From: Trypethelium eluteriae
Lineage: Eukaryota
Reading direction: 5' to 3'
NCBI GenBank assembly: GCA_051942245.1
Contig: JAVECL010000029.1
Coordinates: 1-64,000 of the forward strand
Length of the DNA: 64,000 nucleotides
Part shown: positions 5,426 to 24,983 of the stretch, one piece after another
How the letters are laid out: each line of letters starts with the position of its first letter
How positions within the stretch are numbered: position 1 is the stretch's first letter
The notes under the pieces: model-generated
What the model saw: the letters and a program-made list of their open reading frames with translations, nothing else
Told to the model about the DNA's origin: nothing
Databases searched by the model: none
Program-made: the position numbers and the translations under genes

Positions 5426-8354
5426 TCACTGTTGCGTACTTTTCAGCCCCAGTAGAAAACGAGCCAGGAGTCGTGACGTGCTTAGTGTCTGCGTTTCCAA
5501 CGAGATTGGCATCGCTTGCCGCTCTTGCAGATATGACTCTGTGACCAACGAGGTTAGCGTAAACATTCTTCCACGTGCAGAGAACCGACCACTGTACAGA
5601 CAGGCGCTGTCGTAGAGAGCAGTGTAGAATGCGAGAGTTAATGTAGGGGAAATATTCACGTACTCTTTTCGTCCACCAAATCTGACACGTCCCTCACAAA
5701 TCGCATTTCCCTGTCTCCAATCCATTTGGTCATGTGCTCGTATCCATTGTCTTTGAGCGGGTTCAGACTCTTGTTGAACTTGGAGGAGAATAGACTGCAC
5801 AAGAAGTGAAACCTCTCATCAATCGCTTCAGCAGCTCCATCCGCCTCGTTGGCTGCATGTGCTCCCACGATTTCTCTGCGTTGCCACCGATCGTCCATAA
5901 TGATATAAACAGTTCTTTGCATATCCTCTTGTGCCATTGCGAGACCCAGAAGGCATAAAAATGCAGGAACCCAGTTTCCCCGCACGTTGGAGGAGTGGAG
6001 AATTTGCTGAAGCTTGTTGAGAAGGTTCGTGAGAAGCTCCCGGTGGAGTAGAGAGAAGAGGTACTTTAGTTGACGGTTCGCCATGCGCGGAGAAGTATAA
6101 GGATCATGGGGAAGCGGAAAGTGATGCCTGTGACTAAGCCAATGGAGAAGTGATTCCTGGGTTTCCGGGGTAAAGGTTAGTGTGCGGCCCATCATATAGG
6201 TCACCAGGATAAGACGCATAATTTGTCCAAGGAGAGGTTGATGCTATTTCGTGTCAGAACGACTGTCTACCTGACAGTACTGGTCGTCATGTGAGCTCAC
6301 CTTGCTATCGGGATCCTCGTAGAAAAGGTCGACCATGAGCTTGAGGAGACGCTTCGCAAAGTCATCGTCCTCCTCTTGATAGAACTTCCTCGGTAAATCG
6401 GACAGGTGACGCCGGACAACGTCGTCAATATATCTTTCATAGATTCGTGCATCAGCGTCTTGCACGTGATATAGGGCCAAGGGAGGCGATCGTTTGATAA
6501 TACGCTCGCTATGACCAGTATTGGGATTTCTGATATATTGTGCTTGCTTTGCCAACTCTGGAGTAGTTGGAGCAAATTCGTGTACGGTACAAACGATTGG
6601 ATGCGCTAAACCTATGCTGAGCTTGATCGTGATTGGAGTCTCATCGAGGTGGCCAATTTGTGTCTGACAGAAGCTCCGTAAAGCTTGACGTTCGTGGATC
6701 ATTCCCATCACTCCTGTTCATTCTAGTCAGTTGTGAACTTTCTAGTCGTTCGGTACTCGACCGCACCTGGCAGGAATTGTAGTTGGAGATCCATTAACCT
6801 GGTCCGATCGCAACCAAGAGCACCGTTTGGCCGTGCTCGATTGATACGCTTCAAACATCTGTGACATATTTGGCCAGGACCACACTCGTGGGAATTAGTC
6901 TCAAATCTCGAAGTGGCAGGTCCGGATTTCCATACCTTGTCTCTTTGGAAGACACATCTCCAACACGAGACAACGTCTCGCATCTCTCGTGCGCTAGCTT
7001 TCGTGTTATCAGCCAAGTGAGAGCCGCGCTTTCGTCCACCAGCCTTCATGGAATCTTCCCTTCTTCGCCGCTTTATCTGGGAATTTGACGAAGCTGACGC
7101 CTTTGCGCTTGTCACTGAGGCACTTCGGGTGGACTGATGAGAAGCGCTGGATAAAGCTTGGCCACTTTCGGCATCCAGAAACCGTGAGGATTGATCGAGA
7201 GAGAATTGGCCGTCGTCTTCCATGGATGGGACGATGGGCGGAGTTGGATTAGACTCATAGTGACCTAAAGAACGGTGGGAGAAGGGATCTGAATGATAGA
7301 TACCAGAGGAGCTTCCCACCACAGAGCTATGAAAACTGTTTCGATTCGAGCTAGTTGGCCGCAGAGGTGGTGTGTAATGGTGAGGTTCATCTTCGAAGGC
7401 CAGTTGCGGTGGTGCGCTGAGTCTCTGGTGATGATGCGTAGAGTCTGAGTCTGCTGGATGTAGATATGCTTTTCTGTGAATTAGCCACTACGAACATCAA
7501 GACGAAGGGCCGTGGTCCTTACCGGGGTGATTGTTTGCCAGATCTTCGATACGCTCTGACAGAGCTCTGTGAGAATTGAAAGGTGAATGGACGTGTGGAT
7601 GGATTGTAAGGTCTTCATAATGATGGAAATTGTTGGGGGAGTTGTGAGGTACGGTCAAGCCTCTTGGTCCCAGCCTGCTGGAAAATATCGAATGAATTGA
7701 AGGTTGCGCCAGGGAGGCCTGCAAAGCGGGACCTCCGGCCGGTATCCCATGGAAATCATCAGAGATGCCGAGTCCGAAGTCCGCTACATTGGCTCCGAAA
7801 GGTGGAACTTCTGATTGATAGCCGGCGAGTTCTGCAGTTCGACCTCCTGGGAAGGGGTCAAAAGACGATAAGGTGGGTTGACTTGGATAGCTGGATATGT
7901 CGGGTGGCGGCAATGAATAGCGATGATCATTCTCATTCTTTTGGTGGGTGTCCGAAACGGGGAATTCCCAAGAAGTATCAGAAAGGTTGTTAGAACTCCC
8001 ATTCAAGTCCTGCATGTGCAAGAAATGGTCCATATCTCTGGAGTGATCGGGAATGCTACTAGTTTCCAAAAGATGGGGGCGATCCTGGTCTAAAGTGACG
8101 GACGTGCTGACCGACGCAGACAGACTTTCGGGGTAGGTGTTTTCATTAGAATTGGACATTTCGCCGGGGGATGAATCAGGGGAGAAAGAAAGAGGGTGCG
8201 TAATCGAAAATCCCAGCCCACCAAGCCAGTCCCAGTCATCGCTATTCGCAGGTCCAACACCGGTAGAAGCAGCACTGGCGGCGTACACCTGTTCAAGATC
8301 ATCCAGTCCGTCCAACGGGGAATCGTACGGTTCGGCCAAAACTTCGATACTCAT
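5426..8354 (-). CDS. Fungal transcription factor with a central, atypical Zn(II)2Cys6 cluster
   Basis: Six exons: 8354-7523, 7468-6936, 6884-6767, 6713-6301, 6243-5664, 5538-5426. They join five ORF-track fragments in frame. Spliced motif CWRCVFQRDK/CGPGQICHRC-x14-C is preceded by basic KRRRR...GGRKRG; the N-terminus is long, acidic and Ser-rich. Confidence 0.85.
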
Positions 8355-20837: not shown

Positions 20838-22661
20838 TCATGCTTCATTGACGACTTCTCGATCTGAAGAGTCCTCAAAAATTTCGTGGGCACGATGATC
20901 TTCTGCAAAATTTACGAAGTCAAACTTTCTCCAGCTTACATCCTGGCTTCTCTCACCCCTTCGTCGCCTCTCAAGTCCTCCAAACCCACCCCAGTACGAA
21001 TCATTCTGAATGGGCGGTATGCTGCGCTGACAGGCTGGGTGCTCATAGTCCTGCTTCCTCCCCAACGGCCAGATGGGAATAAAGCACACCTCATCCAACT
21101 CGCAGTTTCCGCATTTCTTCCAGGGGGTCCAGCGTAGGTACTCAACCAAATTCTGAACTGAAGTTTGTGCTGCTTTGAGAGAGGATGCATGAGTCGTGTC
21201 GACGAGTGTGCTGCAAAGGGTTTCTGTGACAGTGTAGATGGCATTTGCGGCCATCGAGCGAGGTGAGGTGGACCAGGAAGGGGGAAGATATTGTACCGCG
21301 CAGCGCTCGATTTCCAACCTGTCATTCCGGTTGCTGTAATCAATGTATGGCGCGAGCAGAGCTTTGACCTCGGCTTGCAGCTGGTCGAGGGAATCTACCA
21401 AACGAGAGGAGAGGTGCGCCAGGCGATCAGAATAGCGGGCGACGATCATATCCGCAACGCTTTGCCAGTTTCTCTCGGTAACTTCCTTTTCTCTCTTATC
21501 AGCTATTGGCGCATTTGATATGATCATTTTAGAAATATCGTCTCGAATTCCAGTGCGAGTGATATTTGAAACGTTCGCGATTCGAGGATGCTCCGAGTTG
21601 TCCTCAAATAGGTTGATGCCATACCCGAAGCACGTCACAAAATGATCATAGTCGAGCCGTACGCGATCACCGCCAATTCCGTCAAATCGGGACGCGACTG
21701 CTCGGTAGTAAGCCATCTCTGTACCAAATCCTCCTTTCAGGCCTTCCCGCACAGAAGTCCGTGAAATGAAGTCGATTTCGAGATGTTTCTCAAAGTCACA
21801 AAGGATGATCTCGAAGCCCATTTCCATGCGAAGGAAGCCGTCAATACGACCTCCCCAATCAGTGATGGATAAATTGCATAAGCCATATGCACGAGCCCAC
21901 TCTCCCATCATAGGATGATGTGTGCTGGTGTTGGAGGGTTGTAAAATGTAATCGGTCGAGTCGAGAGTTCCATTGAAGGTCTTGCCGGCAGACATGCCAT
22001 CAATGTAGAGAAGTGATAGTGGATGCTTGGTACGATATGTAAACAAAAAGCCTCCTCTATCTTCCTTGCCCCCTTCTACTTGCATTGGCTTTTGCTGACG
22101 CCCTTGTGGTGCAGCCATCGATAGAACTGCCTCTGAATGGCTTTGTATGCGTGGCCCTTGCTCGACATCGAAATATTTAGGTCGTCTTTTGTAGCGAACA
22201 GCTTCCCAAAGCAGTGGCAAGAGTTTCCACGGCTTAGGCTGGGTGGATGCCGGTGCGTGCCTGTACTCTTCCGTCGAATGAAACACGTCTTCTGGTGCTT
22301 GCGACAGCTCTGTCCTAGTACTATCATCCGCAGGGTGTTTGCGCCTCGGCAGAGGTCGAGCAAACATCATTGCATGCTCTGGTTCAAAAGCAAGCCACTC
22401 CGGGCCTGGTACAGACTCGTTCGAGCCCCTTCCATGATATAGCTGCGTTCCCTCTGCTACGGAGGCGAGGAAGAATGACATACCGTTATGGTTTAAGGAC
22501 GAACCCCACTGACGCATGGATGAATGAATTGCATTGAATATATGGTTAGCATTTTGCAATGGTGCGGATGGCTCTCTGTTTGGCTCAAATGAAGGCAAGA
22601 CAATGCCTACAGTGGAGCGAGCAGCCAGCAAGAAACAGTATGTTGAAAAAAGAAAAGACAT
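20838..22661 (-). CDS. Secreted, uncharacterised fungal protein (probably YOR389W-like family); possible ADP-ribosyltransferase-like fold
   Basis: Intronless 607-aa ORF with a hydrophobic signal-like N-terminus. Conserved-looking blocks NANHIFNAIHSSMRQWGSSLNHNGMS, LYHG, EWLAFEPEHA, LLYIDGMSAGK, IDGFLRMEMGFEIILCDF, and a Cys-rich end WKKCGNC...CFIPIWP. Family name is from memory. Confidence 0.8.
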   Translation of the reverse strand: MSFLFSTYCFLLAARSTVGIVLPSFEPNREPSAPLQNANHIFNAIHSSMRQWGSSLNHNGMSFFLASVAEGTQLYHGRGSNESVPGPEWLAFEPEHAMMFARPLPRRKHPADDSTRTELSQAPEDVFHSTEEYRHAPASTQPKPWKLLPLLWEAVRYKRRPKYFDVEQGPRIQSHSEAVLSMAAPQGRQQKPMQVEGGKEDRGGFLFTYRTKHPLSLLYIDGMSAGKTFNGTLDSTDYILQPSNTSTHHPMMGEWARAYGLCNLSITDWGGRIDGFLRMEMGFEIILCDFEKHLEIDFISRTSVREGLKGGFGTEMAYYRAVASRFDGIGGDRVRLDYDHFVTCFGYGINLFEDNSEHPRIANVSNITRTGIRDDISKMIISNAPIADKREKEVTERNWQSVADMIVARYSDRLAHLSSRLVDSLDQLQAEVKALLAPYIDYSNRNDRLEIERCAVQYLPPSWSTSPRSMAANAIYTVTETLCSTLVDTTHASSLKAAQTSVQNLVEYLRWTPWKKCGNCELDEVCFIPIWPLGRKQDYEHPACQRSIPPIQNDSYWGGFGGLERRRRGERSQDVSWRKFDFVNFAEDHRAHEIFEDSSDREVVNEA

Positions 22662-23207: not shown

Positions 23208-24751
23208 CTATTTGATATGGACATCCAACCCGTCCAAATCGCTGATTTCTGTATCTTGTATCATGTCGATCTCCTTGAGCCTCTCACCGTCAAATTCGAT
23301 GAATACTATCTGTGCCGCTGCGGTCTTAAAAGCCTTTCGGGCGACATTAACTATCTGCATTATCTTAGTTGTCTGCTTATAAGTCAGCAATTAATATCGG
23401 TGGCAGGACAATAACACCTACCGGTTTCACAATGATCTTGTAGTCCGCCATCCCCTTCGCTTTCAAGATGATTCTTACTTGTGCATCCGCCTCTCGAGAC
23501 TGGTCTACTCTTGAACTAGGATCGATAGCCTCATCCCCAGAGTAGCTGGAATGCGTAGCAGGTCCAGCTTGAGTTTTCTTACCTGCCTTTTCCTTTTTCG
23601 ACAGCTCGAGGATCTCTTCAGTCACAGCTTCGAGGTGCACTTTCACTGCACCATCTTCATCATCATCTTTGAATCCCTCTCTATCACTGAATCCTTTCTT
23701 TTGTCCAGGAATGAAAGTGGTTCCCAAAGCGTCCACTGCGATCCCTAAACTCTTGCAGCTCGTCACATCGAATATTCTTCTCCCTCTCCAGGTCAGAAAT
23801 ACGTCGACCTCGGTTATCGGTGGTGGAAATTGCTGTCTTGAACACCAAGCAGCTCTTACCTCCTGTAACCGTTGAGATAATTTCCTTTTGACGATGAGGG
23901 GACAGGACCCTTCAATAGGGGATGTGATCAGTAGTTGCACGACAGGATCTGGGGCCTCAGTTGATGGTGACTTCTTTGCTCCAGCCGAGGAAGTCATGTA
24001 CTCTCTCGACAAATAATTTCTACCCATTCCTTGTGCAAGACTTGCGTTCTCAAGTTCACGCTGACGGGCTCTCGCACGGGCCGCGGCAGCAAGTTCAGGG
24101 AATTCCTCCACGGACTCATTATCTTCATCTTCGTTGTCCTGAGACTTCTCAATTAGCCCAGGACAGGGTTTTGAGGCCTGGGTAATCTCAATGTCCGGCT
24201 CCGAATCTGATCCACTACCAAGGTCTATGATCTCCGAAGTAGATTGGGCAGGGGACTTTGGAACCTCTGCTGGTACATAACCTGCCTTGCTGATTTCTTC
24301 TTGTGGCACCAGTGATTTTTGTGAAGGTCCAGGAGACGCGATTCGAGCATCCTTGGGTGATTGTCTACTTCTTGATTAGTACTGTCTGTCCTGTCACTTC
24401 CCCGACTTCTCTTGCAGCACACCTCTTTCTGCCTGCCCGGGAGTCGCTAGCACCTCCATAATCCTTATCCATATCATTGCTGACCCGCCTCTTCTTTCTC
24501 GATCCGACGCCATCAAGTTCTAGCTGTCTTGCTGCTTCCTGTCGCTCTTTCTCCCGCACTTCCTTTGCCTGATGTTTTCGCTGTCGCTCAGCAAGTATTG
24601 CGTCGAAGGATTCCTTCGATCTTTCAAATAGATTTTCAGGTGTGGAGGTAACTTGTGGGAGTGCCTTGCGACCCGCGGGGCGATTGAATAGGGACTTTTT
24701 GGCTGGTTTGGTAGGCGGCCCGTCGACTGAGGCAGAGGCTTCCATGAGCAT
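23208..24751 (-). CDS. Esc2/Rad60-like protein with tandem SUMO-like domains
   Basis: Exons 24751 (or 24745)-24423, 24364-23422, 23372-23208. SLD1: VVQLLITSPIEGSCPLIVKRKLSQRL...VFLTWRGRRIFDVTSC. SLD2: VRIILKAKG...IEFDGERL...TEISDLDGLDVHIK. Confidence 0.82.
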
Positions 24752-24983
24752 ATATTTCGATCTATGAATGCACCCAGTACGCCAAAAAAGGAACGAGTAG
24801 CGGTCTCGAGGCTTTGCGCCTAGGAGAAAGGTGTAGAGAGCGAAGATTAATTCACGATTCCTCATGCGCTGCCCCACGGCGCGCGGTCACATGATCGCGC
24901 AACCTAAAGGTTTGTAGGTCAACTTTCGAGTCCCCCGCCAAACTCTAAGAACGCAACATCAGATACCAAAATTGAACACAGCA

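What the first reader, a model, noticed from the sequence alone, without database searches (positions are those of the whole stretch)
20838..22661. Secreted uncharacterised protein with the motif order of an H-Y-E ADP-ribosyltransferase
Seen: signal-like N-terminus, then TQLYHG (H76), EWLAFEPEHAMMFA (W89), a ~100-aa variable-looking insert with dibasic sites (RRK, KRR), GGFLFTYRTKHPLSLLYID, and IDGFLRMEMGFEIILCDF (E284). Established: H-Y-E clade ARTs (diphtheria toxin, PARP relatives) show LYHG(T) on strand 1, an aromatic-F-[AST]-x4-A-x2-[YF]-A segment, a g-x-hhh-y-x5-l-x-l strand, and a late D-G-h-h...E-h-h-h strand carrying the catalytic Glu. Inference: all four elements occur in the right order (W replaces Y), so this may be a secreted fungal NAD-utilising enzyme, toxin or effector, possibly Kex2-processed in the insert. 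I know of no such function assigned to this family.
Basis: partly seen in the sequence, partly recalled or inferred. Interest (0 to 1): 0.75.

Follow-up and report, generated by a model that had tools for sequence, protein, structure and literature searches.

The report
Secreted fungal diphtheria-toxin-fold NAD enzyme
This gene belongs to a widespread family of secreted fungal proteins of unknown function, named after the baker's yeast gene YPL277C, and its predicted shape and conserved residues suggest an NAD-cutting enzyme built like the active part of diphtheria toxin, which could be tested directly in yeast.

Summary
The 607-aa ORF (22661-20838, minus strand) and the cited residues are real. 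It belongs to the uncharacterised fungal YPL277C/YOR389W family (Pfam PF27671; 1,202 representatives at 50% identity). A model of residues 35-345, aligned to 48,161 PDB chains, ranks diphtheria toxin (DT) and its homologues first (Z 8.5-9.3), then RES toxins, exotoxin A and PARPs; 47 of 50 listed rows are ADP-ribosyltransferase (ART)-fold proteins. In 258 homologues E284 is invariant (257/257) and H76, W89 and F100 are kept in 97-98%. The register fits DT His21/Glu148, and both tyrosines are replaced (H-W/F-E). Foldseek and profile searches gave nothing significant, and I could not inspect the pocket in 3D. There is no DT-like translocation or receptor domain, no long active-site loop and no conserved neighbouring gene. 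A secreted NAD-cleaving enzyme therefore fits better than an eEF2 toxin. Kex2 processing is weakly supported. This copy has Phe where the family has His (position 207). No paper in the searched library links the family to ADP-ribosylation. The yeast sequences were not retrieved. Verdict: new variant of a known fold, activity unshown.

The parts
20838..22661 (-). Uninterrupted ORF, 607 aa, YPL277C/YOR389W family (PF27671)
22605..22661 (-). Signal-peptide-like N-terminus (about residues 1-19; cleavage point is a guess)
   Evidence: hydrophobicity test on query and family
22464..22550 (-). Residues 38-66: two helices and a strand, the most conserved block of the family (mean top-residue frequency 0.80); role unexplained
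21687..22484 (-). ART-fold domain, about residues 60-325, interrupted by the insert
22434..22436 (-). His76 on strand 73-78; inferred equivalent of DT His21 / SAIP His24
22362..22397 (-). Trp89 to Phe100 (strand, helix, aromatic); inferred equivalents of the two NAD-binding tyrosines, spacing 11
22053..22358 (-). Residues 102-203: disordered insert of variable length (pLDDT below 50 over 120-197) with basic pairs
22041..22043 (-). Phe207, where 119/119 close homologues and 241/255 of all homologues have His
21810..21830 (-). Arg278 to Glu284; Glu284 starts strand 283-287 and is the inferred catalytic glutamate (DT Glu148 / SAIP Glu147)
21123..21473 (-). Residues 397-513: four-helix bundle, not hydrophobic enough for a membrane hairpin
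20991..21122 (-). Residues 514-557: conserved Cys/Trp-rich C-terminal segment. Eight family-conserved Cys lie at 262-544; disulfides are inferred

Best explanation
A soluble, secreted, disulfide-bonded and probably glycosylated fungal enzyme whose N-terminal domain is an ART fold of the diphtheria-toxin type with an H-W/F-E site. Shown computationally: the fold, the family, the conservation and a signal-like N-terminus. Inferred: NAD+ binds in the cleft lined by His76, Trp89 and Phe100, and Glu284 promotes loss of nicotinamide as in other ARTs. Inferred and least certain: it works outside the cell, at the wall or in the medium, and passes ADP-ribose to water, phosphate or a small or cell-wall acceptor rather than entering another cell. 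That would serve salvage of released NAD, removal of extracellular NAD signals, or inactivation of a small molecule. The many further conserved charged residues (R50, E93, E95, H96, D221, K227, D234, R257, R278, E280, R325) suggest a defined acceptor site.
For: Domain model versus 48,161 PDB chains: only 75 reach Z 2 and 4 reach Z 8. Those 4 are SAIP (Z 9.3, rmsd 3.8, 140 aligned), DT (9.1, 4.8, 147; 8.9, 4.2, 150) and Chelona toxin (8.5, 4.5, 144); 47 of 50 listed rows are ART-fold proteins, classed partly from recall. The full-length model gives the same N-terminal matches. End-anchored register puts the DT/SAIP His at query 75-78 and the Glu at 281-286. E284 257/257, H76 240/248, W89 240/245, F100 240/248; H-W-F-E together in 120/133 spanning representatives. 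Signal-like start in 106/117 versus 16/117 controls; hydrophobic C-terminal anchor in 0/150. Maximum 19-residue hydropathy of the mature chain is 0.93. No neighbour recurs across 37 loci beyond local synteny in at most 7. Yeast Yor389w is listed as extracellular and is more abundant in flor biofilm (PMC5412306); Ypl277c is in a glycoproteome table (PMC2758718). Fungi have secreted pure NADases of another ART family (PMC7955114).
Against: Foldseek found nothing at E<=0.001 (best MbcT, E 0.084 to 0.25). Sequence profiles detect no ART. The structural matches have 9-12% identity and 3.3-5 A rmsd, and the domain model has mean pLDDT 67. Residue equivalences rest on alignment end points and strand order, not on a superposition. 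Both tyrosines are substituted. The top matches are eEF2 toxins, not NADases. This copy lacks His207. A small divergent clade loses His76 and Phe100 but keeps Glu284. Free extracellular NAD is probably scarce (own knowledge).
Confidence: 0.5

Rival explanations
1. A secreted killer toxin or effector: a mono-ART that is taken up by competing microbes or host cells and modifies a macromolecule there (eEF2 diphthamide in the narrowest version), possibly after nicking of the insert.
For: The best structural matches are DT and its eEF2-modifying homologues. The catalytic Glu is retained, with a second conserved Glu four residues upstream (E280, 238/258). There are three divergent copies in this genome, one decayed. 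KR/RR pairs are slightly enriched in the insert (75/128 versus 64; 1 of 200 shuffles reached it).
Against: No hydrophobic hairpin and no beta-rich receptor domain in the model. His-to-aromatic spacing is 13 (131 of the representatives) against 31 in SAIP, so the DT CL2 loop (PMC8120803) has no room. No recurring immunity-like neighbour. The window copy sits among housekeeping genes. About 36-60% identity across distant fungi is unlike a fast-evolving effector.
Confidence: 0.2
2. An ART-fold protein with different chemistry: the cleft binds another nucleotide, nucleotide sugar or glycan, and E284/R278/D221 catalyse a non-NAD reaction in the cell wall.
For: The strictly invariant residues are D221, R278, E284, C262 and C288 rather than His76. 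Both canonical tyrosines are changed. A clade lacks His76 and Phe100. The ART fold also occurs in non-transferase domains among the hits, such as TASOR pseudo-PARP and CNFy.
Against: His, two aromatics at spacing 11 and Glu are all kept in 120/133 spanning representatives, which is the NAD-binding set of the DT clade.
Confidence: 0.18
3. The family is an NAD enzyme but this copy is impaired or repurposed, because His207 is replaced.
For: His at 207 in 119/119 close homologues, including the 73%-identical nearest one; Phe occurs in none of the four commonest residues there.
Against: Only 2 of 112 conserved columns differ in this copy, which is the family median (62/119 homologues differ at as many or more). 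Gln, Tyr and Arg are tolerated at 207 in distant members. The ORF is intact.
Confidence: 0.08
4. The ART likeness is a chance resemblance of a poorly modelled mixed alpha/beta domain.
For: No significant Foldseek or profile hit; rmsd about 4-5 A.
Against: 47 of 50 rows of an unbiased search belong to one superfamily, the top 4 exceed Z 8, and the conserved residues fall at the expected register. The Atlas's own model also returns RES clusters.
Confidence: 0.04

Closest known systems
YPL277C/YOR389W family (Pfam PF27671 YPL277C_N)
   Same: Same family: PF27671 is precomputed on the identical protein and on 120/120 listed homologues; Atlas feature score 0.96.
   Different: No function is assigned in the papers seen. 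The second yeast-type domain PF27673 was on none of the listed hits. The yeast sequences and the Pfam entry text were not available.
Diphtheria toxin catalytic domain and homologues (SAIP, Chelona, Peptono, Albireti toxins)
   Same: Best structural matches (Z 7.0-9.3); His, two aromatics 11 apart and Glu in the same order.
   Different: W/F instead of Y/Y; 13-residue instead of about 31-residue His-to-aromatic loop; large disordered insert; no translocation or receptor domain; fungal and entered into the secretory pathway.
RES-domain toxins (MbcT, ParT, Xre-RES, NatT)
   Same: Next structural tier (Z 5.1-7.3); MbcT is Foldseek's best row; RES clusters in the Atlas. They cleave NAD by phosphorolysis (PMC9503650).
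   Different: RES has R-Y-N (PMC8120803); here His (240/248) and Glu. No antitoxin; secreted.
PARPs and exotoxin A/Cholix
   Same: Same fold (Z 4.2-5.9), His and Glu.
   Different: Weaker match, no PARP profile hit, secreted.
Fungal surface TNT NADases (AfNADase)
   Same: Secreted fungal ART-related NAD-cleaving enzymes; the nearest functional analogy (PMC7955114).
   Different: R-F-Q motif; no TNT Pfam hit.
Predicted secreted ARTs of Magnaporthe and Beauveria
   Same: Secreted fungal ART folds found by structure prediction (PMC9447291, PMC12099005), including two DT-like Beauveria proteins.
   Different: The Magnaporthe set is Scabin/enterotoxin-like; the Beauveria set is described as limited to entomopathogens. 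Their sequences were not compared with this family here.

Membership tests
YPL277C/YOR389W family (PF27671) | Match to the family profile | tested here: met
   Precomputed PF27671 on the identical protein and 120/120 listed hits; Atlas 0.96. The local Pfam scan did not return this model.
YPL277C/YOR389W family (PF27671) | The yeast namesakes keep H/W/F/E | not tested
   No Saccharomycotina sequence appeared among named hits.
ART superfamily | Split beta-sheet ART core | tested here: met
   Z 9.3 (rmsd 3.8, 140 aligned) to SAIP; 47 of 50 rows ART-fold. Based on a predicted model; Foldseek not significant.
ART superfamily | Conserved N-terminal His/Arg and late catalytic Glu | tested here: met
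   H76 240/248, E284 257/257; register within 3 residues.
ART superfamily | His and Glu converge on one NAD pocket | tested here: inconclusive
   No coordinates or residue pairs were returned; only alignment ranges.
ART superfamily | NAD+ cleavage or ADP-ribose transfer | not testable with these tools
   Needs an assay.
H-Y-E (H-Y/Y-E) clade, strict | Tyr at both aromatic positions | tested here: not met
   W89 240/245 (Tyr in 1) and F100 240/248. Works-like only; not filed as a strict member.
Diphtheria toxin family | Hydrophobic translocation (T) domain | tested here: not met
   Maximum 19-residue hydropathy 0.93; 6/148 representatives exceed 1.6.
Diphtheria toxin family | Receptor-binding (R) domain | tested here: not met
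   The model's C-terminal half is helical with only two 3-residue strands; that R is beta-rich is recalled.
Diphtheria toxin family | Long CL2 active-site loop between His and first aromatic | tested here: not met
   Spacing 13 versus 31 in SAIP; CL2 is DT 34-52.
Diphtheria toxin family | ADP-ribosylation of eEF2 diphthamide | not testable with these tools
   Needs an assay.
RES domain | R-Y-N triad | tested here: not met
   His at the first position in 240/248 (Arg in 3) and Glu at the last; triad from PMC8120803.
Fungal TNT NADases | TNT domain with R-F-Q motif | tested here: not met
   His/Glu instead; no TNT profile hit for the query or among the 25 families shown for 90 members.
Kex2-processed proproteins | Conserved KR site in the insert | tested here: inconclusive
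   KR in 29/128; KR or RR in 75/128 versus 64 +/- 4.5 shuffled. Present in this copy.

The most novel reading that the evidence does not exclude
Ascomycetes and basidiomycetes, including baker's yeast (YPL277C/YOR389W), carry an unrecognised secreted diphtheria-toxin-type mono-ADP-ribosyltransferase with an H-W/F-E site that covalently modifies a macromolecule in the cell wall or in competing cells. It would be an active ARTD-type transferase in an organism generally thought to have none (recalled).
Probability: 0.22. Interest if true: 0.85.

Novelty: new variant of a known kind. Interest (0 to 1): 0.62.

Why it matters
It gives a fold, a candidate substrate and four named residues to a large fungal family with no assigned function, whose namesakes are two uncharacterised genes of S. 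cerevisiae. That makes the question testable with standard yeast genetics and a one-day NAD assay. It would add a conserved eukaryotic, secreted branch to the diphtheria-toxin side of the ART superfamily, with an active-site signature (H-W/F-E, short loop) not seen in the papers read. If it is an NADase, it is a second family of fungal surface NAD enzymes, found well beyond pathogens. If it is a transferase, it implies extracellular ADP-ribosylation in fungi.

Tried and rejected
Sequence-level detection of an ART failed: Pfam on the query and on 90 members, PDB by single sequence and two profiles, NCBIfam and PHROGs, and hhalign against a PARP-like protein of the same genome (probability 0.2). 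Foldseek gave no E<=0.001 in PDB or the viral library.

Prokaryotic or viral relatives: one weak 35-residue hit in GTDB genomes (E 1e-4), none in viral contigs or phage records. These scans are pattern-limited and do not prove absence.

Fusions: Ctr, HSP70, methyltransferase and carboxypeptidase partners occur in 1-2 proteins each and are treated as probable gene-calling merges. No conserved neighbourhood. The C-terminal bundle matched only generic four-helix bundles (Z<=7.7) and was not folded alone.

No RNA holder was listed. The one DNA run may be this window's source, so it is not independent. Earlier scan findings: none. Aravind et al. 2015 is not held. The family tree is a quick one with long branches.

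Full report
Observation. The window is fungal DNA. An uninterrupted ORF of 607 codons runs from 22661 to 20838 on the minus strand. Its neighbours are housekeeping genes: a proteasome subunit, a Pex2/Pex12-family RING protein and a DDX23-like helicase. The real spacing from W89 to F100 is 11.

Family. A search of 5.8 billion proteins gave 988 hits among the 8,000 candidates scored. All 120 listed carry PF27671, which the Atlas names YPL277C_N after the yeast gene. A profile search of 1.84 billion 50%-identity representatives gave 1,202 hits at E<=0.001, of which 150 were listed. Named hits are all fungi: Dothideomycetes, Eurotiomycetes, Sordariomycetes, Leotiomycetes, Saitoella and Agaricomycetes (class names from my own knowledge). 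In a quick tree of 32 rows the window protein groups with Trypethelium and Bathelium proteins, which are lichen-forming fungi (recalled). Pattern scans found one weak 35-residue prokaryotic hit and no viral hit. The genome holds two more copies: an intact one on C480, 38% identical, and one on C321 with two in-frame stops and lost C-terminal cysteines.

Fold. The full-length model, built from 116 sequences, has mean pLDDT 77 and pTM 0.77. Residues 120-197 and 569-607 are disordered. Its wide search was dominated by generic four-helix bundles matching 397-513, but the N-terminal matches were SAIP, DT, Chelona toxin and MbcT. Residues 35-345 were then folded alone (pLDDT 67) and aligned to 48,161 PDB chains. 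Only 75 reached Z 2, 25 reached Z 5 and 4 reached Z 8. The order was SAIP (Z 9.3, rmsd 3.8, 140 aligned), DT (9.1, 4.8, 147 and 8.9, 4.2, 150), Chelona (8.5), Peptono (7.7), MbcT (7.3), Albireti (7.0), ParT (6.8), then exotoxin A, Cholix and PARPs (5-6). I recognise 47 of the 50 listed rows as ART-fold proteins, partly from recall; 9k3a, 9ya0 and 8dwq I cannot class. A second look at Foldseek's 121 chains agreed. Against this: Foldseek gave no match at E<=0.001, identities are 9-12%, and no sequence profile detects an ART.

Active site. The tools returned alignment ranges, not residue pairs. Counting in from the ends of three top alignments places the DT/SAIP His at query 75-78 and the Glu at 281-286, bracketing H76 and E284. 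Reference residues come from PMC13171429 (SAIP His24, Tyr55, Tyr66, Glu147) and PMC8120803 (DT His21, Tyr65, Glu148); PMC7955114 calls the DT motif H-Y/Y-E. In the model H76 lies on strand 73-78, W89 on strand 88-91, F100 just after helix 94-98, and E284 at the start of strand 283-287. In 258 homologues, counting ungapped rows: H76 240/248, W89 240/245, F100 240/248, R278 258/258, E284 257/257, D221 257/257. H-W-F-E occur together in 120 of 133 representatives that span the domain; 17 of 150 were left out as fragments. W-to-F spacing is 11 in 138/138. His-to-W spacing is 13 in 131 of 138, against 31 in SAIP, so the long DT loop is missing. The signature is H-W/F-E, not H-Y/Y-E. A small clade loses His76 and Phe100 but keeps the Glu. 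This copy has Phe207 where 119/119 close homologues have His, yet it differs at only 2 of 112 conserved columns, the family median.

Secretion and processing. A crude hydrophobicity test scored 106 of 117 representatives as signal-like against 16 of 117 internal controls; 0 of 150 have a hydrophobic C-terminal anchor and none ends in HDEL or KDEL. Eight cysteines are conserved in at least 98% of ungapped rows, and the query has seven N-glycosylation sequons. Yeast Yor389w is listed as extracellular and is more abundant in flor biofilm (PMC5412306). Ypl277c appears in a glycoproteome table as a membrane-fraction protein (PMC2758718). Both genes are direct Rim101-repressed targets (PMC5864183). 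The insert is 5-421 residues in 128 representatives. KR occurs in 29 of 128, and KR or RR in 75 against 64 +/- 4.5 in shuffles. Nicking is therefore possible but not a conserved requirement. A cut there would split the catalytic domain between its His/aromatic half and its Glu half (inference).

Mechanism. Best reading (0.5): a secreted enzyme that binds NAD+ through His76, Trp89 and Phe100, cleaves off nicotinamide with Glu284, and passes ADP-ribose to water, phosphate or a small or wall-bound acceptor outside the cell. The general SN1 chemistry and the choice of nucleophile are described in PMC9503650. The reasons to prefer this to a toxin are as follows. There is no hydrophobic hairpin (maximum 0.93) and no beta-rich receptor domain. 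The DT loop is absent. No neighbour recurs among 36 of the 80 metagenome loci with long flanks plus the window, beyond synteny in at most 7. The family is well conserved across lifestyles. Rivals: a killer toxin or effector mono-ART (0.2), non-NAD chemistry on the same fold (0.18), an impaired copy (0.08) and chance likeness (0.04). Taken together, NAD cleavage by the family is about 0.75 likely.

Comparison and novelty. It is a member of PF27671 and, on a predicted model, of the ART superfamily. It is not filed as a strict H-Y-E, diphtheria-toxin, RES or TNT member, since defining features of each were tested and not met. Secreted fungal ART folds have been predicted before in Magnaporthe and Beauveria; I did not compare their sequences with this family. 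In the searched library 24 papers name YPL277C or YOR389W, of which 20 were listed. A search requiring two of six terms, including 'ADP-ribosyl', returned three works, none containing 'ADP-ribosyl'. Related searches listed nothing on this family by title or abstract. Limits: supplements and subscription journals were not searched, Aravind et al. 2015 was not held, and I could not read the Pfam 38 entry, which may already mention the fold. Two of the 120 listed hits carry the UniRef name 'Enterotoxin', so automatic naming may have glimpsed an ART likeness. The yeast proteins themselves were not retrieved, so their active site is untested.

What I saw of each paper. Passages plus one section: PMC13171429 (section 9), PMC8120803 (section 5, part 1 of 3). 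Passages only: PMC9447291, PMC12099005, PMC9503650, PMC7955114, PMC5412306, PMC2758718, PMC5864183, PMC5812507, PMC13333559, PMC10118281 and bioRxiv 10.1101/2025.03.07.642061. All others: search listing only.

Verdict. Observation confirmed; interpretation partly supported; new variant of a known kind; interest 0.62.

Noticed in passing
L089 about 6505-6937 (-) and L090 2550-3161 (+), contig C480 of the own genome: About 0.8 kb upstream of the intact paralogue lies a small gene with a signal-like start, an apparent intron and about eight near-identical Tyr-Tyr-Gly-containing repeats separated by basic residues, like a fungal repeat-peptide (RiPP) precursor. About 4 kb further is an ORF that looks like a UstYa/DUF3328 oxidase by recall but has no Pfam hit. 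That ORF recurs beside a homologue in 1 of 80 metagenome loci (L042, 65%), where the repeats were not found.
   Followed up: partly
L003 610-2340 (-), contig C321: Third family copy, of a divergent subfamily, with two in-frame stop codons and lost C-terminal cysteines; probably a pseudogene.
   Followed up: partly
window 22041-22043: Phe207 in place of a His found in 119/119 close homologues; the codon differs from a His codon at two positions. The only run that holds it may be the window's own source.
   Followed up: partly
P0200, P0237 (and in part P0208): A divergent clade, with a Cladosporium member, replaces His76 and Phe100 while keeping Arg278 and Glu284: possible pseudo-enzymes or changed substrate. 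Three other members have Arg at position 76.
   Followed up: no
L007 and L008 (own genome, contigs C411 and C40): Two PARP-like genes. By eye one has an N-terminal RWD-like region and the other a C-terminal ubiquitin-conjugating-like region (domain names recalled).
   Followed up: no
P0014, P0015 (Diplodia seriata): Family member annotated as fused to a Ctr copper transporter, probably a merge of adjacent genes. Yeast YOR389W/YPL277C are recalled as copper-regulated, which was not checked.
   Followed up: no
window 23377-24865 (-): Two ORF pieces without Pfam hits upstream of the gene; they look like exons of one gene with ubiquitin-like stretches (by eye).
   Followed up: no
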